In this document: positions 2,032 through 39,217 of the stretch, one piece after another | Position numbering within the stretch: the first letter of the stretch is position 1 | Layout: every line of letters begins with the position of its first letter | The notes under the pieces: generated by a model | Seen by the model: the letters and a program-made list of their open reading frames with translations, nothing else | Told to the model about the DNA's origin: nothing | Database searches by the model: none | Translations under genes and position numbers: made by a program | Sequence record: MN850651.1 | From: Escherichia phage moskry | Strand: one strand, 5' to 3' | DNA: 64,000 nt

Positions 2032-2931
2032 TTATTCCTCGATTACGACATCTTCGTATTTAGGTATATTATACGGTGAAGAAATTAAAGCATTAAAGTA
2101 GATGAACTCACCAAGACCTGGATGGAATACTTCTTCAGGATTTTCGAAATATTGAATCTTCGGACGTCCTTTAAGAATTTGATAGTACTCAGTTTTAGTT
2201 GGATTAAAAATTCGAATCAGCGCTTCTTCAGGATACTTATTTCTGTCGAAGCTATTATTTGGATCGGTTATATAAAGCGGTTGACCTAATTGAATTGCGC
2301 ATTCAACCACTTGTTCAAAACGATAACACGGGTCACTAATTCGAAATGGATGAAAAATACCATCTAGATGAATAGGAGCCAAATCACCTACAAGACGCTG
2401 CATGATGGAAGGACGTATAACTTTCTGAGTTACGATAATCTTATTACCATCTGCACCTGCGTTAACCAGCACTTCTTTTTGACGTTCATTCAACACAGTA
2501 GTTTGAAGTGAACTATTAACTGACAACATATCGGTTTTTAAGAATTCGTCAATATAAAAACGTGGTTTATTAGGGTCTGCCGTGATATTGAAATTGAATT
2601 CTACATCAAAAGCGCCGTCATAACCAGTGATATCTGTTATTAGAAAATCACAATCATAATAAGCAATTAATGAATCAACCACAAATTCATTTTCAGACCA
2701 GAAATATTTACGAGTGTTATACGCGTTATCTTTATACCATAATGGAACAAACTTAAATTCCGGGAAAAGACGTTCACATTCTTTAATATCAGATGCATTA
2801 CGTGGATATGTAATCACATCACCTGGATTAGCACGGTGCAAATGAAGTTGGAAGTTGCCATCCTTAAGGATAGCATACTGTCCAGTTTCATAAGACCGCA
2901 TACTCAAAATAGGTACGCGGAAAATAGCCAT
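2032..2931 (-). CDS. Hypothetical protein in the T4 beta-gt position; candidate DNA sugar transferase
   Basis: 299 aa ORF, stop/start abutting gene 42 homolog; no resemblance to recalled T4 beta-gt. Confidence 0.55.
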   Translation of the reverse strand: MAIFRVPILSMRSYETGQYAILKDGNFQLHLHRANPGDVITYPRNASDIKECERLFPEFKFVPLWYKDNAYNTRKYFWSENEFVVDSLIAYYDCDFLITDITGYDGAFDVEFNFNITADPNKPRFYIDEFLKTDMLSVNSSLQTTVLNERQKEVLVNAGADGNKIIVTQKVIRPSIMQRLVGDLAPIHLDGIFHPFRISDPCYRFEQVVECAIQLGQPLYITDPNNSFDRNKYPEEALIRIFNPTKTEYYQILKGRPKIQYFENPEEVFHPGLGEFIYFNALISSPYNIPKYEDVVIEE

Positions 2932-3647
2932 TAGTCAAGAAATCCTTTAACATAATCAAAATCACGTTCAAACACATGGGCACTTACCATGGTATGAGTA
3001 TAATCACCAACTTCTACACCACATTCGTTAGCGATATAATGAAGTAATTTTCCTTGGAGATAAAAATCCAACTGCATAACAACAGCACAGTTCTGAGAAC
3101 GCATATGACAGTGGGTATAAAGCTTACCATCACGAATATAATAAGTCACTGAGTCAGTACATGGATATTCAAGTGTTTCGTCCGAATCAAGCAAAGCCTG
3201 ATCAGAACTTTCTAGAATTTGGAACACAACTCTTCGAGAGTTAGGTTTCTCTTTAAGTTCTTTTAGAAGAGCCGGTAATTGGGCCGCAATGCGAGGACCG
3301 TAGAAAGTGTTGAAGTTTGCAGGCAAAGCGTCTGATTTAGGTTTAGAAATAAATTTAGCGACATTAGGATATGCCTTAAACGCTTCTTCTGCATCAGTAC
3401 CACCAGAAATCATAAACTTCCAGAAGTCTTCGGCATATTCATAAGAGATGCGGTTAATACGTGGGTCGGTCATTTTGAATGATGATGGATTGTCAACAAC
3501 TACTGTCATGGACCCGATTTCATTACAACGTCCAATACGAGAATTAGTTACGAATTCGGGGTTTTCTAAAATTTCACGATTGACTGCTTTAAATGCGGTT
3601 TGAAAATCTGCGGCTTTGATATATTTCATTGTGTTATGTTTTCCCAT
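2931..3647 (-). CDS. 42: dCMP hydroxymethylase-like enzyme (thymidylate synthase superfamily)
   Basis: 238 aa; catalytic Cys context YPCTDSVTYYIRDGK and HMRSQN parallel T4 gp42 CTNTVQYLIRDKK / NMRSND. Confidence 0.75.
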   Translation of the reverse strand: MGKHNTMKYIKAADFQTAFKAVNREILENPEFVTNSRIGRCNEIGSMTVVVDNPSSFKMTDPRINRISYEYAEDFWKFMISGGTDAEEAFKAYPNVAKFISKPKSDALPANFNTFYGPRIAAQLPALLKELKEKPNSRRVVFQILESSDQALLDSDETLEYPCTDSVTYYIRDGKLYTHCHMRSQNCAVVMQLDFYLQGKLLHYIANECGVEVGDYTHTMVSAHVFERDFDYVKGFLD

Positions 3648-3689
3648 GTTTACCTCAATACAATTTATTATATACTCAATTCGTAAAGC

Positions 3690-3929
3690 TTATTTGAATT
3701 TCTTAGCAATGTTGATATAACGTAAAGCTTCAGAATCTATACTTCCAAGAACACTATGAAGGAATGCATCAGCGTAGTATTCTAGTTGAACAGGTTCTTT
3801 AATCGCTTTAGCCGCTTTAGTTTCAAACAGGCCCATAAGGGCCTTTTTAAGAATTTGTTCGTTGCTATTAATTTTTATGGTCAAAATCTCTTCATTAAGT
3901 TGGTGGTTAAAAGTTTTTCTAGAAATCAT
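3690..3929 (-). CDS. Small hypothetical protein
   Basis: 79 aa ORF co-directional within the modification block. Confidence 0.45.
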   Translation of the reverse strand: MISRKTFNHQLNEEILTIKINSNEQILKKALMGLFETKAAKAIKEPVQLEYYADAFLHSVLGSIDSEALRYINIAKKFK

Positions 3930-5104
3930 TCCGGGTACCTCAAAGCGTCGTCAGAGTTAGTTATATCAATAATAGATATAGAATTTTCTGATAACCCATT
4001 TTTAGATAACTGGCGTTTATAATATCTTTCACAATATGTACACGTCGTCCCGCAGATTTCATTAGCACAATCGAAATCTGGATGTCTGAACCACCTTTTT
4101 TCTAAAAAGCCGTCTAACAAAGAGGTTTCAATATTTACCGTATGTGAAAACTCGGTCTCATTTTCAAGAGTGAAAATGGTCTCTAAAGGCTTCCACAATT
4201 CCAACAAATTACCTTCAAACTTTTCAGAAGCATAAGCTTCAAGAACTTTCAAAATGTAGTCGGTGCTACCTGTACGTCCCGAAACTTTAAATTGAGTGAT
4301 ACCAATATCGTTATAAAGTTTCAAATCTTGGGGACGAACAAAACGAGTTCTCAACCAGTTAAATGGGTCTGTATCACGAGCTTTAATACAGTGCTGCATA
4401 GGATATCCGTTTAAGGATTTAGCATCATCAGCCGTAACATCAGTACTATGGAAAATATAGCAAGAGTCACGATAGCTACAATGTGTTGTATACCCTTTAC
4501 CAGCATTAGAACAGAACTCATTTACAAGAACTTCAAATATTATATTGTTCTTATTGCAAAACTCTGCTGCACGCTTCAGGAAAGAAACTGAACGGTTCTT
4601 ATGAATTCCACAGCAGACCTTTTTGATATTATATTGGTCATGCAAGTATTTGATTTGAGTTACAGCATCGACATGTAGAATTGTTGAAACTTCAATCTCA
4701 ATGTCTTTATTGACTTCACGAACAATTTCCATAACAACAGGGTTAGCGATAGTAATACGCCATACGCCTATTGACCAAAGATACTGAACATAATCCTGAA
4801 TAGCTTTCTTCTTCCACTCAACTAGTTCTCTTTTTGAACCAGGATTTATCGTGTTGAGTGTATAGTTAAAGCAAATACCTAATTCGTTACAACGTTTAAC
4901 GTAGTCTTCTAACATCTTTTTGTCAACGTCAGGAAGCCTAAAATCAGGTCTGGCTGCTACAAAAGCCATTTCTCTTGTAGAGCCGTATACTTCGTTTATC
5001 AAGCTATTAGGATAAGTTTTATTGAGCTCTACGATTTTATCAAGAAGAGCTAAATCAAAATTCGTTCCGATTTTAAAAGTATTCATTTTTTTTTTGCATC
5101 TCAC
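3926..5104 (-). CDS. Hypothetical protein with C-terminal Cys cluster; candidate sugar transferase or accessory enzyme
   Basis: 392 aa; C-terminal CANEICGTTCTYCERYY; no family recognised by eye. Confidence 0.55.
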   Translation of the reverse strand: MRCKKKMNTFKIGTNFDLALLDKIVELNKTYPNSLINEVYGSTREMAFVAARPDFRLPDVDKKMLEDYVKRCNELGICFNYTLNTINPGSKRELVEWKKKAIQDYVQYLWSIGVWRITIANPVVMEIVREVNKDIEIEVSTILHVDAVTQIKYLHDQYNIKKVCCGIHKNRSVSFLKRAAEFCNKNNIIFEVLVNEFCSNAGKGYTTHCSYRDSCYIFHSTDVTADDAKSLNGYPMQHCIKARDTDPFNWLRTRFVRPQDLKLYNDIGITQFKVSGRTGSTDYILKVLEAYASEKFEGNLLELWKPLETIFTLENETEFSHTVNIETSLLDGFLEKRWFRHPDFDCANEICGTTCTYCERYYKRQLSKNGLSENSISIIDITNSDDALRYPE

Positions 5105-35944: not shown

Positions 35945-36157
35945 TTAATTTTGGCCAGTATTTATTTTTCGCCTTTGGACGGCCTTAACATCTGTGAGGT
36001 ATTTTTCCAGCTTGCGCTTGCGTGTATAATCAGCTTTAGAACCAGTTTGACGGATATCCTCGTTTAAATGAGAAATAGAATGTCCTAATTCTCTTCGGAT
36101 TTCATCCAATTGGGTTACAGTAAGATTACGAAGTTGTCTTTCGTTTAATTGCTGCAT
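35945..36157 (-). CDS. Hypothetical protein
   Basis: 70 aa; TATAAATA late-promoter-like motif upstream. Confidence 0.5.
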
Positions 36158-36184
36158 ATATACCTCTTGGTTAGATATTAGTAT

Positions 36185-36766
36185 TTATAACAACCCTGTC
36201 AAATCATTCCAATGCTTCCGGCATAATGACACATATCTATCGGTATCACCAATTTCAATTTGACTGCCATCTGTAATTGGAAGTCCGTCTTCCGTGACTC
36301 TAGCTACCATTGTGGCCTTTTTACCACAATGACAGACACCTTTAAGTTCAACAAGCTTATCAGCAATAGCCATTAATGCTTGAGAACCTTCAAATAGATT
36401 ACCTTTAAAATCTGTTCGTAGTCCATATGCCATTACCGGCACATTGTATACGTCAACAATACGACTAAGTTGATACACCTTTTCAGTAGTTAAGAACTGA
36501 GCTTCGTCAACAAATACACAGTGAATATCCTTTTGTGCTGCAGCCCATTTATAGAATTCAAAGATATCCATGTCTTTTGTAATTATATTGGCGTCCTGAC
36601 GAATACCAATACGAGAGACTATTTCACCTTTTGAATCGCGAGTATCAATAGCCGGTTTAAGAACTAATACACCCATGCCACGTTCTTTATAGTTATGTGC
36701 GGCAGTAAGTAATGAAGCAGACTTACCAGCGTTCATAGCGGCATATGTAAAAATTAAACTAGCCAT
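36185..36766 (-). CDS. tk: Thymidine kinase
   Basis: 193 aa; MASLIFTYAAMNAGKSASLL...VCHCGKKA matches T4 Tk. Confidence 0.95.
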   Translation of the reverse strand: MASLIFTYAAMNAGKSASLLTAAHNYKERGMGVLVLKPAIDTRDSKGEIVSRIGIRQDANIITKDMDIFEFYKWAAAQKDIHCVFVDEAQFLTTEKVYQLSRIVDVYNVPVMAYGLRTDFKGNLFEGSQALMAIADKLVELKGVCHCGKKATMVARVTEDGLPITDGSQIEIGDTDRYVSLCRKHWNDLTGLL

Positions 36767-36956
36767 AAGAGTCCTTAGTTAAATTTTCTAAATATGTTTC
36801 CAAATCATTTTCAGCTTTATCGATAGATTTTACTAATTCGTAATATGTTTCGGCATCTCCATAATCAGAAGATAATTCAAAAGACAAATCCTTTTCTAAA
36901 CTAATAATTTCACCAACTAAAAATAATATTTCGTTCTTTTGTTCGCGAGTAATCAT
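36759..36956 (-). CDS. Hypothetical protein
   Basis: 65 aa. Confidence 0.45.
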   Translation of the reverse strand: MITREQKNEILFLVGEIISLEKDLSFELSSDYGDAETYYELVKSIDKAENDLETYLENLTKDSYG

Positions 36957-37159
36957 AAGGAATTTATATAATCAATGAGTTCTTGTTCTTTATTATCGAA
37001 TTCTTTAGAAAGTTCTTCGTACTCGTTTGCGCTAAAAGGACCGCATTCATTACAAACTTTTTCCAATTCGCTATTTTTATCCATAACTTCGTGGATAAGA
37101 GAAAAGAGTCTGTCTTTTTGTTCTTTACTTAAACTCATAACCATGTCACCTTTAAGCAA
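36953..37159 (-). CDS. Hypothetical protein
   Basis: 68 aa. Confidence 0.45.
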   Translation of the reverse strand: MLKGDMVMSLSKEQKDRLFSLIHEVMDKNSELEKVCNECGPFSANEYEELSKEFDNKEQELIDYINSL

Positions 37160-37362
37160 TATTCTTCTACATGTTGTTTACGGCCTTTCTTATCAATAAA
37201 GGTATATTCAACGAATGTTCCGATGTAGTCTTTATCTACATCATGTGGACTATTAATTGGACATTTAGTACGACAAATGCGTTCCCATTGACGAATAATT
37301 ACTGCCTTATTCTTTGGATCGTATGGATGTGGATAATGTATATTCATAATAACGGTTCCCAA
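37135..37362 (-). CDS. Hypothetical protein
   Basis: 75 aa. Confidence 0.45.
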   Translation of the reverse strand: MGTVIMNIHYPHPYDPKNKAVIIRQWERICRTKCPINSPHDVDKDYIGTFVEYTFIDKKGRKQHVEEYCLKVTWL

Positions 37363-37841
37363 TCAACAATCACAATTTCTAGTTTAGTAGAATACGTATC
37401 TAAAATCTCTTCGATGACATCCCAGTTTCCACCACCAATACCTGCGCCAATTCTTGGCATATAAATTACAGGCTTTGTTATCTTATTCTTTCCGAATTCA
37501 TTTAATTCTATTATACAATTCATTAAAGCAGAGTACTCAAAATTAGGTCCAGGCTCAAACTGCGTATAAAGATTAAAGCAATAAGCTTTATGGGTCTTAA
37601 AATATTTTTCATAAACCGAATAAGACCCGAGTTTAGACTCGTCTCCATATGCAGTTTGAAGTTTATCGGCTTCCAGAATTTTTGGATAAGCCTTTGCTAA
37701 TTGTCCTGCCACACCGGCGCCCATTGTATGAAAACAATTACACCCATGAGCAATATTATTACCTTTAGAAAACAGGGCGACAATATCGCCCTTGATATAG
37801 TTTTTAATCACTTGCTGCAAGTCCTCTATTATAAGAGTCAA
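37344..37841 (-). CDS. Macro-domain-like protein (putative ADP-ribose binding/processing)
   Basis: 165 aa; GNNIAHGCNCFHTMGAGVAGQLAKAYP resembles the NxxN...GxGVAxx macrodomain motif. Confidence 0.45.
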   Translation of the reverse strand: MTLIIEDLQQVIKNYIKGDIVALFSKGNNIAHGCNCFHTMGAGVAGQLAKAYPKILEADKLQTAYGDESKLGSYSVYEKYFKTHKAYCFNLYTQFEPGPNFEYSALMNCIIELNEFGKNKITKPVIYMPRIGAGIGGGNWDVIEEILDTYSTKLEIVIVDWEPLL

Positions 37842-38151
37842 CTAGACGGTCTACCATAGAATTGCATGCTGCCTTATCTTTAGGTTCCGCCACCGAGCAT
37901 TCTAATATTTGCCATTTTTTATAGTATCTTTTAATTAAGGTAGACGCCTTGAACCTACTAGACGCCCCATCTTTTTCTCCGTCTTTATACGCATATAACA
38001 ATTTTTGTGAAAAATCTACTTTACACTCTTGACTTTTACCACAATAATCAGACGCCGTTCTGTTTGTATACTCCGTTACATCAGTATATGTAGTATTAGC
38101 AAGAGCGTTAAATGAAACCAAGCCAACTATTAAAGCCAACATTTTGGTCAT
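37804..38151 (-). CDS. Secreted protein with signal peptide (vs-position)
   Basis: 115 aa; MTKMLALIVGLVSFNALA. Confidence 0.5.
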   Translation of the reverse strand: MTKMLALIVGLVSFNALANTTYTDVTEYTNRTASDYCGKSQECKVDFSQKLLYAYKDGEKDGASSRFKASTLIKRYYKKWQILECSVAEPKDKAACNSMVDRLVDSYNRGLAASD

Positions 38152-38690
38152 TCTTTTATTTCCAGTAGTTTATTTGATTTAAGGTAATTAGCCTTTTCTA
38201 GGACTTCAGAAGCATATTTACTTCCAGCACTCGTCTTCCATCCCGCATTATATGAGGATATAGCTTTTCTTATATCCCCGTTATGTATATTTAACCAATA
38301 AGAAAATTCTATATAAGCCCATCTGGCTGAATTAGACCGCTTAGATAGCATTTTCTTAATTTGGGCATCAGTCATATTGTAACCAAGCTGGTTAATTCTT
38401 GCCCTCATTGTTGGTAGATAATTTTGGAACATTCCATACGCATGGTGACCTTTCTTATCTTTAAGATTAATACCGGCAGATGATTCTTGCCATAGTATTG
38501 CGGCCATTATGTATCCAAGTCCTTTCTTATGCATATTTTCATGCGTTTTAAATTTTCCATCCTTAGAAAACTGTTCCCCAAACTGATAAGCATAATTCAA
38601 GTTATCGAGTTGGACATTACTAAAAGTATGCTCGGAGCTATGTGCTGATAATGAAAGAGCAAATAGACCAGCGAGTAGTGCTTTTCTCAT
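38148..38690 (-). CDS. Periplasmic lytic-transglycosylase-like protein
   Basis: 180 aa; signal peptide; ILWQESSAG...YGMFQ motif typical of SLT domains. Confidence 0.55.
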   Translation of the reverse strand: MRKALLAGLFALSLSAHSSEHTFSNVQLDNLNYAYQFGEQFSKDGKFKTHENMHKKGLGYIMAAILWQESSAGINLKDKKGHHAYGMFQNYLPTMRARINQLGYNMTDAQIKKMLSKRSNSARWAYIEFSYWLNIHNGDIRKAISSYNAGWKTSAGSKYASEVLEKANYLKSNKLLEIKE

Positions 38691-38698
38691 GTTTACCT

Positions 38699-39157
38699 CT
38701 AGATTTTAATCACTGCTTTAGAAGCTTTTCCTGGTAGTCGTTTACTGTTAATAATAGCCATTCTGCATTGAAGAGTCTTCATTTTGAATGCCGGATTTTC
38801 GCGACAAACTGTAAGTCCCAACCAAAGATTTCCATCAGTTATTTCTAAACGGCCTGGACGGTATTCGACACCTTCGACAAAATCTTCATCAACATCTGGA
38901 CGTGCCGGCATTGATAAAAATTCTGCAACTTCTTTAACATGATTTTTTACTTTACGAAATAATTCAAAAACGTAATTCTCATCTATTTCTCTCTGGATGG
39001 CACGATCTAAGAGATGTTGAGAATACTTGATATGAAAGCCTGGTAGTCCAAGAGACTTTGCAGCATCTTTTATACTGGCATTTATTTTGCGGAACTCCGT
39101 TTCAAAGATTCGACGGAGTTTATTACGGCGGATAAAAACTTCCGAATTGATAGTCAT
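38699..39157 (-). CDS. regB: RegB endoribonuclease
   Basis: 152 aa; MTINSEVFIRRNKLRR...HLLDRAIQREIDENYVFELF...LQCRMAIINSKRLPGKASKAVIK matches T4 RegB. Confidence 0.93.
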   Translation of the reverse strand: MTINSEVFIRRNKLRRIFETEFRKINASIKDAAKSLGLPGFHIKYSQHLLDRAIQREIDENYVFELFRKVKNHVKEVAEFLSMPARPDVDEDFVEGVEYRPGRLEITDGNLWLGLTVCRENPAFKMKTLQCRMAIINSKRLPGKASKAVIKI

Positions 39158-39217
39158 TTTGATTTCTCCTCTAGTTGACAGGTCTATAGTAACACAACTA
39201 GAGGAGATGTAAACTGC

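What the first reader, a model, noticed from the sequence alone, without database searches (positions are those of the whole stretch)
37344..37841. Macro-domain-like protein in the tk-vs region
A 165-aa protein carries a motif reminiscent of macrodomains that bind or hydrolyse ADP-ribose. In a phage this could reverse host ADP-ribosylation (for example DarT-type DNA ADP-ribosylation) or process phage Alt/Mod products.
Basis: inference. Interest (0 to 1): 0.55.

Follow-up and report, generated by a model that had tools for sequence, protein, structure and literature searches.

The report
Phage macrodomain that counters DarTG2

Summary
The ORF is real and encodes a macrodomain. The true gene is 37344-37811 (-), 155 aa, starting at a GTG.

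The window is a Mosigvirus, 98.4% identical to phage HX01. The protein is 85% identical over its full length to T4 Tk.4 and 96.7% identical to RB69 Tk.4, and it sits in the same vs / tk.4 / tk.3 position.

A November 2025 preprint shows that deleting T4 tk.4 sensitises T4 to DarTG2, and names the gene adfM. The DarT hypothesis is therefore supported and already known.

One detail appears new. The catalytic lysine of DarG (K80) and TARG1 (K84) is replaced by a glutamine that never varies in this family (200 homologues examined). His22, Asn25 and Gln84 match His24, Asn27 and Gln85 of Streptomyces SCO6735, a lysine-less enzyme that does cleave thymidine-linked ADP-ribose from DNA. The T-even protein therefore probably uses the SCO6735-type mechanism, and is only remotely related to the lysine-bearing PhiKZ "AdfM". 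No enzymology exists for this clade.

The parts
37344..37811 (-). tk.4 / adfM coding sequence: 155 aa, GTG start at 37811-37809, TGA stop at 37346-37344. Single macrodomain.
   Evidence: Same extent as annotated orthologues. T4 has an ATG at the same position. 85% identical to T4 Tk.4. Pfam Macro. AF2 pLDDT 96.1.
37812..37841 (-). Not part of this gene; it lies within the 3' end of vs in another frame.
37822..37826 (-). Shine-Dalgarno-like GAGGA, 10 nt upstream of the GTG; conserved in T4 and RB69.
   Evidence: Alignment; sequence.
37734..37748 (-). Codons 22-26, H-G-C-N-C. His22 and Asn25 align with SCO6735 His24/Asn27 and with DarG N22.
   Evidence: hhalign. H22, G23 and N25 are each present in 118 of 120 homologues and in 81 of 81 sequences (the window protein plus 80 bacterial homologues). 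The bacterial set was selected with this motif.
37713..37724 (-). Codons 30-33, M-G-A-G: the first phosphate-binding (GxG) loop of the macrodomain. Ala32 occupies the position of SCO6735 Lys34 and of the lysine in DarG's MGKG loop.
37560..37574 (-). Codons 80-84, N-L-Y-T-Q. Gln84 occupies the position of the catalytic Lys80 of DarG, Lys84 of TARG1 and Gln85 of SCO6735.
   Evidence: hhalign. Q84, N80 and Y82 are invariant in 120/120 and 81/81. Equivalence of SCO6735 Gln85 is stated in PMC9411070.
37422..37457 (-). Codons 119-130, P-R-I-G-A-G-I-G-G-G-N-W: the second phosphate-binding loop. Gly122 and Gly124 align with SCO6735 Gly126 and Gly128. The TARG1 Asp125 position is Gly.
37804..38151 (-). 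Upstream neighbour vs (valyl-tRNA synthetase modifier). Its stop overlaps the tk.4 start by 8 nt.
37135..37347 (-). Downstream neighbour, tk.3-like. Its ATG overlaps the tk.4 TGA (ATGA), which suggests translational coupling in one operon.

Best explanation
The gene is the Mosigvirus orthologue of T4 tk.4 (adfM). It is a stand-alone 155-aa macrodomain, expressed from the tightly packed regB-vs.1-vs-tk.4-tk.3-tk.2-tk.1-tk cluster on the minus strand.

Its most likely job is to act as an orphan antitoxin against DarTG2-type defence. The host toxin DarT2 attaches ADP-ribose to N3 of thymidine in single-stranded TNTC motifs and blocks phage DNA replication. The phage macrodomain binds the ADP-ribose and hydrolyses the ribose-thymine bond, which restores the DNA.

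Shown:
- the macrodomain fold;
- orthology to T4 tk.4;
- the T4 knockout phenotype on DarTG2 (literature).

Inferred:
- That protection is enzymatic.
- That the chemistry is of the SCO6735 type. In that model Gln84, held in place by Asn25, positions the distal ribose and a water-mediated step breaks the bond. This differs from the lysine-dependent chemistry of DarG, TARG1 and PhiKZ AdfM, because the family carries an invariant Gln where those enzymes have the catalytic Lys.
For: Identity and position:
- The window is 98.4% identical to Mosigvirus HX01 across tk-regB.
- The protein is 85% identical to T4 Tk.4 with no gaps and 96.7% identical to RB69 Tk.4.
- Gene order is the same as in T4.

Genetics in T4:
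- tk.4 was the only significant hit on a DarTG2 host, and a clean knockout was sensitised.
- T2 and T4 lacking adfN remain DarTG2-resistant, so another factor was expected.
- DarTG2 is reported to target T5 and SECphi18, and DarTG1 to target RB69.

Fold:
- Pfam Macro is above threshold.
- The AF2 model has pLDDT 96.1.

Active site:
- hhalign places Q84 on DarG K80, TARG1 K84 and SCO6735 Q85.
- It also places H22, N25, G122 and G124 on SCO6735 H24, N27, G126 and G128.
- In SCO6735, Q85A abolishes and N27S nearly abolishes thymidine-ADPr hydrolysis.
- Q84 is invariant in 120/120 and 81/81 homologues.
Against: - No biochemical assay exists for any Tk.4-clade protein. The T4 evidence is genetic and comes from a preprint.
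- The protein lacks the two lysines (K34, K89) and the long mobile loop that help SCO6735 hold DNA.
- It is mildly acidic: pI 5.9, family median 5.86, against 9.9 for SCO6735 and 9.2 for Taq DarG.
- It scores only 33 bits against the NCBIfam DarG model, whose cut-off is 250.
- This particular phage, and RB69, have not been tested as tk.4 knockouts.
- A catalytically dead SCO6735 still inhibits DarT by binding, so protection need not be purely enzymatic.
Confidence: 0.75

Rival explanations
1. The protein neutralises DarT2 mainly by binding it, or by shielding ADP-ribosylated DNA, rather than by hydrolysis.
For: Catalytically dead SCO6735 Q85A, DarG K80A and TARG1 K84A all inhibit DarT in vitro, with SCO6735 the strongest. 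Other phage anti-DarT factors, AdfA and AdfB, act by binding. The T4 data are genetic only.
Against: Every residue shown to matter for catalysis in SCO6735 (Asn27, Gln85, Gly128) is invariant across about 200 homologues, including bacterial ones with no DarT neighbour. That pattern is what selection on an active site would produce. The protein also lacks the C-terminal DarT-binding domain of DarG: it is 155 aa and a macrodomain only.
Confidence: 0.08
2. Its primary substrate is a small ADP-ribose derivative. Candidates are ADP-ribose-1''-phosphate, O-acetyl-ADP-ribose or an ADP-ribose-based immune signal. This is what the long-standing 'phosphatase / A1pp' annotation implies.
Against: The only phenotype reported for tk.4 is DarTG2 sensitivity, and tk.4 was the single hit in that screen. 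The 'phosphatase' name is a transferred annotation, not a measurement. Small-molecule activity could coexist with DNA de-ADP-ribosylation, as it does in TARG1.
Confidence: 0.1
3. It reverses or trims the phage's own ADP-ribosylation or RNAylation marks made by Alt, ModA and ModB.
For: T-even phages encode three ADP-ribosyltransferases (established knowledge; mentioned). A paired eraser would be a tidy arrangement.
Against: Alt and Mod modify arginine (established knowledge). TARG1-class macrodomains are documented on Glu/Asp esters and on thymine/uracil N-glycosidic links, not on arginine. tk.4 is not adjacent to alt or mod. No evidence retrieved here links tk.4 to Alt/Mod targets.
Confidence: 0.04

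Closest known systems
T4 Tk.4 = AdfM (anti-DarT factor Macrodomain), bioRxiv 10.1101/2025.11.20.689424
   Same: Orthologue. 85% identity over all 155 residues with no gaps. Same position between vs and tk.3. Same start position and Shine-Dalgarno sequence. All family-invariant residues are identical.
   Different: 24 substitutions, none at invariant positions. Residue 127 is Gly here, as in most of the family, but Lys in T4. The start codon is GTG rather than ATG. The DarTG2 phenotype has been shown only for T4.
Streptomyces coelicolor SCO6735 (PDB 5E3B) and its close homologue BT1257 (PDB 2AFC/2FG1)
   Different: Only about 21-30% identical. Tk.4 lacks Lys34 (Ala32 instead), and lacks the mobile loop that is 5 residues longer and carries Lys89. 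It is acidic rather than strongly basic. It has its own invariant residues (Asp49, Tyr82) that SCO6735 lacks.
DarG2 antitoxin macrodomain (T. aquaticus 5M31/5M3E, M. tuberculosis 5M3I)
   Different: The catalytic Lys80 is replaced by Gln84. There is no C-terminal DarT-binding domain and no adjacent DarT gene. It scores 33 bits against a cut-off of 250 on the NCBIfam DarG model. Identity is about 20%.
Chimallivirus AdfM (PhiKZ gp104; Cell Rep 2026, PMC13309987)
   Same: Same name and same biological role: a stand-alone phage macrodomain that counters DarTG2. For PhiKZ, removal of T-ADPr has been shown in vitro.
   Different: Only a remote homologue. BLASTP finds a 23-residue local match (E 6e-4) and hhalign gives 96.4%. 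PhiKZ AdfM keeps the DarG-type FPTK lysine (K78) and closely resembles DarG2. The T-even protein has Gln. The two proteins called 'AdfM' are different clades.
Human TARG1 / OARD1
   Same: Top Foldseek hit (E 2.8e-10) with hhalign probability 98.3%. TARG1 also removes T-ADPr from DNA.
   Different: The TARG1 catalytic dyad Lys84/Asp125 corresponds to Gln84/Gly here.
Yeast Poa1p (ADP-ribose-1''-phosphate phosphatase, PDB 6LFQ)
   Different: The C-terminal half is weakly similar. No phosphatase activity has been shown for Tk.4.

Membership tests
Macrodomain superfamily (Pfam PF01661) | Profile match above the curated threshold | tested here: met
   28.2 bits against a gathering score of 22, E 1.9e-6, covering profile positions 2-117 of 118.
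Macrodomain superfamily (Pfam PF01661) | Three-layer alpha/beta/alpha macro fold | tested here: met
Macrodomain superfamily (Pfam PF01661) | Two glycine-rich ADP-ribose phosphate-binding loops | tested here: met
   MGAG (30-33) and PRIGAGIGGG (119-128) align with the corresponding loops of DarG, TARG1 and SCO6735.
Macrodomain superfamily (Pfam PF01661) | Binds ADP-ribose | not testable with these tools
   Needs ITC, a thermal-shift assay or a co-crystal.
T-even Tk.4 / AdfM orthologous group | Full-length high identity to T4 Tk.4 | tested here: met
   131 of 155 identical, no gaps, E 1e-104.
T-even Tk.4 / AdfM orthologous group | Conserved position between vs and tk.3/tk | tested here: met
T-even Tk.4 / AdfM orthologous group | Required for plating on DarTG2 hosts | not testable with these tools
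   Shown for T4 only.
DarG2 antitoxin (NCBIfam NF048014) | Profile score above the equivalog cut-off | tested here: not met
   33 bits against a cut-off of 250.
DarG2 antitoxin (NCBIfam NF048014) | Catalytic lysine (Taq/Mtb K80) | tested here: not met
   Gln84 aligns with K80. Gln is invariant in the family.
DarG2 antitoxin (NCBIfam NF048014) | Conserved Asn (N22) | tested here: met
   N25 aligns with N22.
DarG2 antitoxin (NCBIfam NF048014) | C-terminal DarT-binding domain and an adjacent darT gene | tested here: not met
   The protein is 155 aa and a macrodomain only. Its neighbours are vs and tk.3. 80 bacterial homologues have no conserved neighbour.
SCO6735-type lysine-less T-ADPr hydrolases | Gln at the catalytic position, held by Asn; His and loop Gly conserved | tested here: met
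   Q84=Q85, N25=N27, H22=H24, G124=G128. The roles of these residues come from mutagenesis in PMC9411070.
SCO6735-type lysine-less T-ADPr hydrolases | DNA-positioning Lys34/Lys89, extended mobile loop and a basic surface | tested here: not met
   Ala32 at the K34 position; the loop is 5 residues shorter; pI 5.9 against 9.9.
SCO6735-type lysine-less T-ADPr hydrolases | Hydrolyses thymidine-linked ADP-ribose on ssDNA | not testable with these tools
   Needs a gel-shift or AMP-Glo assay on DarT-modified oligonucleotides.
Poa1p-type ADP-ribose-1''-phosphatase | Phosphatase activity on ADPr-1''-P | not testable with these tools
   Only similarity is available. The annotation is transferred.

The most novel reading that the evidence does not exclude
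The T-even AdfM is not a captured DarG antitoxin. It belongs to a separate, very large clade of stand-alone macrodomains, found in phages and bacteria, with the signature HGCNC...D...KLG...N-x-Y-T-Q...P-x-IGAGIAGG-[DN]-W. This clade cleaves thymine-linked ADP-ribose without a catalytic lysine, using a Gln/Asn-positioned, water-mediated mechanism of the SCO6735 type. It would also lack SCO6735's basic DNA-gripping features. If so, lysine-less N-glycosidic ADP-ribose hydrolysis would be a widespread mechanism rather than a Streptomyces oddity. The clade might also act on uracil-ADPr in RNA or on protein esters.
Probability: 0.45. Interest if true: 0.4.

Novelty: already known. Interest (0 to 1): 0.25.

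Why it matters
This is a good example of a phage 'hypothetical protein / phosphatase' whose real role is anti-defence. Carrying tk.4 predicts that RB69-group phages, which include phage-therapy candidates, will resist DarTG2-bearing E. coli.

The remaining scientific value is mechanistic. Two unrelated-looking macrodomain clades now share the name AdfM. The T-even clade lacks the lysine on which the DarG/TARG1 mechanism rests. It is therefore a natural test of whether the Gln-based chemistry proposed for SCO6735 is general.

Tried and rejected
- **Plasmids.** I searched plasmids with the protein to find annotated DarG relatives. It found only generic 'macro domain-containing' and SLOG-annotated genes and no DarG.
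- **Bacterial partner gene.** I looked for a partner, such as DarT, next to 80 bacterial homologues. After discarding antisense shadow ORFs, no neighbour family occurs in more than 9 loci, and those are lineage-specific synteny. The bacterial homologues are stand-alone genes.
- **Sigma-70 promoters.** The scan around the gene gave no more hits than shuffled sequence (13 found, 15.8 expected).
- **MotA-box site inside the gene.** A middle-promoter-like MotA-box site lies at 37505-37530 (-), but it is absent from T4. I did not count it as part of the feature.
- **RNA stem hiding the Shine-Dalgarno sequence.** Such a stem is predicted for the window and for RB69 (z -2.5 and -2.3), but the minimum-energy fold predicted for T4 is different (z -1.5). 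I left it as a side note.
- **Hit P0123.** This hit from the representative search (1,314 aa, 23 matched stretches) is a tandem-repeat artefact, not a macrodomain.
- **A dead macrodomain.** I considered whether loss of the DarG/TARG1 lysine means an inactive domain. I rejected this because SCO6735 shows the Gln variant is active and the Gln is essential.
- **Reference sequences.** Both were verified as 100% identical to PDB chains before use.

Full report
**What is at the coordinates**

The minus strand carries an open frame from 37841 to 37344, 165 codons counted from a TTG. The window is a T-even phage of the genus Mosigvirus. Positions 36000-39200 are 98.4% identical to Escherichia phage HX01 and 97-98% identical to many RB69-group phages.

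In the annotated relatives the corresponding gene is 468 nt (155 aa). It is called 'phosphatase' in HX01 and 'macro domain protein' in PNJ-6. Mapping those coordinates onto the window gives 37344-37811.

The start is a GTG at 37811. T4 has an ATG at exactly this position, and a GAGGA lies 10 nt upstream in the window, T4 and RB69.

The gene's TGA overlaps the ATG of the next gene (tk.3-like, 37135-37347), and the vs stop overlaps its start. It is thus one cistron of the packed regB-vs.1-vs-tk.4-tk.3-tk.2-tk.1-tk cluster.

**It is a macrodomain**

- Pfam Macro (PF01661) matches at 28.2 bits against a gathering score of 22, nearly end to end on the profile.
- PHROG 335 ('phosphatase') matches at 1.8e-66.
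- An AlphaFold2 model built on a 57-sequence alignment has mean pLDDT 96.1 and pTM 0.91.
- Foldseek against the PDB returns TARG1, Poa1p, BT1257 and DarG macrodomains at E 1e-10 to 1e-7.

The protein therefore belongs to the TARG1-like (ALC1-like) class.

**It is the orthologue of T4 tk.4**

The protein is 85% identical (131/155, no gaps) to T4 Tk.4, NP_049723. It is 96.7% identical to RB69 Tk.4. It lies between vs and tk.3, exactly as in T4.

**What is known about tk.4**

- A November 2025 preprint (bioRxiv 10.1101/2025.11.20.689424) screened a T4 transposon library on a DarTG2 host. It found tk.4 as the single significant hit.
- The same preprint showed that a clean tk.4 knockout is sensitised to DarTG2. 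It noted structural similarity to the M. tuberculosis DarG macrodomain and named the gene adfM. No enzymology was reported there.
- Earlier work had shown that T2 and T4 lacking the NADAR factor AdfN remain DarTG2-resistant. This implied that a second factor exists.
- DarTG2 is reported to restrict T5 and SECphi18, whereas RB69 is restricted by DarTG1.
- Independently, a 2026 Cell Reports paper used the same name, AdfM, for PhiKZ gp104. [quoted passage not shown]

**The active site is not DarG-like**

I aligned the 57-sequence family profile to reference sequences. I had typed TARG1 and M. tuberculosis DarG from memory, and both proved 100% identical to PDB chains before use.

- hhalign places family residue Gln84 on DarG Lys80 (probability 98.3%).
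- It places Gln84 on TARG1 Lys84 (98.3%).
- Asn25 falls on DarG Asn22.
- The TARG1 Asp125 position is glycine.

Gln84 is invariant, together with Asn80 and Tyr82 of the N-x-Y-T-Q motif and Asp49. This holds in all 120 listed phage and metagenome homologues, down to 38% identity. It also holds in all 80 bacterial genome homologues. These four residues were not part of the search patterns used to find the bacterial loci.

A lysine-less site might suggest a dead enzyme, but the literature says otherwise. Streptomyces SCO6735 has Gln85 at the position of TARG1 Lys84 and DarG Lys80. It cleaves thymidine-linked ADP-ribose from DNA and protects against DarT. It is inactivated by Q85A and nearly inactivated by N27S, because Asn27 holds Gln85 in the productive rotamer. 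A water-mediated mechanism has been proposed for it (PMC9411070).

I recovered the SCO6735 sequence from the PDB through its close homologue BT1257. Its numbering reproduces the paper's residues.

hhalign of the Tk.4 family against SCO6735 (probability 98.2%) aligns IAHGCNC with IAHVCND and NLYTQ with NMIGQ. The resulting equivalences are:

| Tk.4 family | SCO6735 |
|---|---|
| His22 | His24 |
| Asn25 | Asn27 |
| Gln84 | Gln85 |
| Gly122 | Gly126 |
| Gly124 | Gly128 |

By contrast, a PhiKZ-type AdfM (the phage PA02 orthologue) shares only a 23-residue local BLASTP match with the window protein. It keeps the FPTK lysine. The two proteins called 'AdfM' are thus different clades with different catalytic residues.

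**Differences from SCO6735**

The Tk.4 clade has Ala at the position of SCO6735 Lys34. Its mobile loop is five residues shorter and lacks Lys89. It is mildly acidic, with pI 5.9 and a family median of 5.86, against 9.9 for SCO6735. It is best described as its own clade within the TARG1-like class, sharing the Gln-type core with SCO6735.

**Distribution and context**

- Relatives occur in 2,792 phage records across Escherichia, Klebsiella, Salmonella, Pseudomonas, Vibrio, Acinetobacter and Aeromonas phages.
- They occur in 365 loci among bacterial species representatives.
- They occur in 5,321 cluster representatives at E<=1e-3, of which 1,555 are at E<=1e-10.
- Eighty bacterial homologues have no recurrent neighbour, and in particular no DarT-like partner. 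The family consists of stand-alone genes rather than toxin-antitoxin modules.

**Most likely mechanism**

- DarT2 is activated by infection and ADP-ribosylates thymidine N3 in ssDNA at replication forks (literature).
- The phage macrodomain is made from the prereplicative vs-tk transcription unit. The timing is from general T4 knowledge and was not tested here.
- It binds the ADP-ribose through its two glycine loops and removes it, so replication proceeds.

I put 0.75 on this overall. Within it, the Gln/Asn water-mediated chemistry is an inference from alignment and from SCO6735 mutagenesis.

The rivals are protection by binding DarT2 (0.08), a primary small-molecule substrate as the old 'A1pp phosphatase' label implies (0.10), and erasing Alt/Mod marks (0.04).

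**Verdict**

Novelty is low, because this is a known gene with a recently published function. The Gln-for-Lys point and the split between the two 'AdfM' clades were not noted in the passages of the papers I read, and they give clear experiments to do.

Noticed in passing
window 37774-37792 (-), codons 7-13 of tk.4: A perfect 8-bp GC-rich hairpin (AGGGCGAUAUUGUCGCCCU) followed by a U-run lies just inside the coding region. The surrounding 26 nt, including the hairpin, are identical in the window, T4 and RB69, wobble positions included. In the window and RB69 the predicted fold also pairs the Shine-Dalgarno GAGGA with the U-run (z -2.5 and -2.3). The minimum-energy fold predicted for T4 is different (z -1.5). 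It may be a translational control element or a chance feature.
   Followed up: partly
window, whole; one site at 37505-37530 (-): T4 middle-promoter-like sites (MotA box TGCTTNA, then 11-13 nt, then TANNNT) are enriched in the window: 14 found against 3.5 expected, 10 of them on the minus strand. One lies inside tk.4, pointing at tk.3-tk. The equivalent T4 sequence lacks it.
   Followed up: partly
L004 (RB69) versus window 36759-37347: Gene content between tk.4 and tk differs within the genus. The window, HX01 and T4 carry three small ORFs there (tk.3, tk.2, tk.1). RB69 has only tk.2 there, and its tk.1 sits about 2 kb away beyond rI.
   Followed up: no
L001, L002, L003 annotation tables: Several product names look like transferred-annotation errors on tiny phage ORFs. 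Examples are 'molybdopterin-guanine dinucleotide biosynthesis protein MobD' for T4 mobD.4 (60 aa), 'putative ABC transporter ATP-binding protein' for the 70-aa tk.3 of PNJ-6, and 'helicase loader' and 'pyrimidine dimer DNA glycosylase' in HX01.
   Followed up: no
P0123 (hit): A 1,314-aa 'protein' made of roughly 23 tandem copies of a 56-residue unit scored E 1.5e-33 through 23 short stretches. It is a repeat-driven false positive, not a macrodomain.
   Followed up: yes
L026 (Vibrio aestuarianus) 2762-3970, upstream of the macrodomain homologue at 3992-4462: By eye, the upstream ORF looks like a tyrosine recombinase/integrase. This hints that at least some bacterial copies sit on mobile elements or prophages. 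No profile search was run.
   Followed up: no
search of phages with the M. tuberculosis DarG macrodomain: Lysine-type DarG-like macrodomains occur in 641 phage records, including Thermus phage phiMa (59% identical to M. tuberculosis DarG), Kuravirus-like E. coli podophages (SU10, 38%) and PhiKZ-like jumbo phages. Phages have therefore acquired both the Lys-type and the Gln-type macrodomains.
   Followed up: partly
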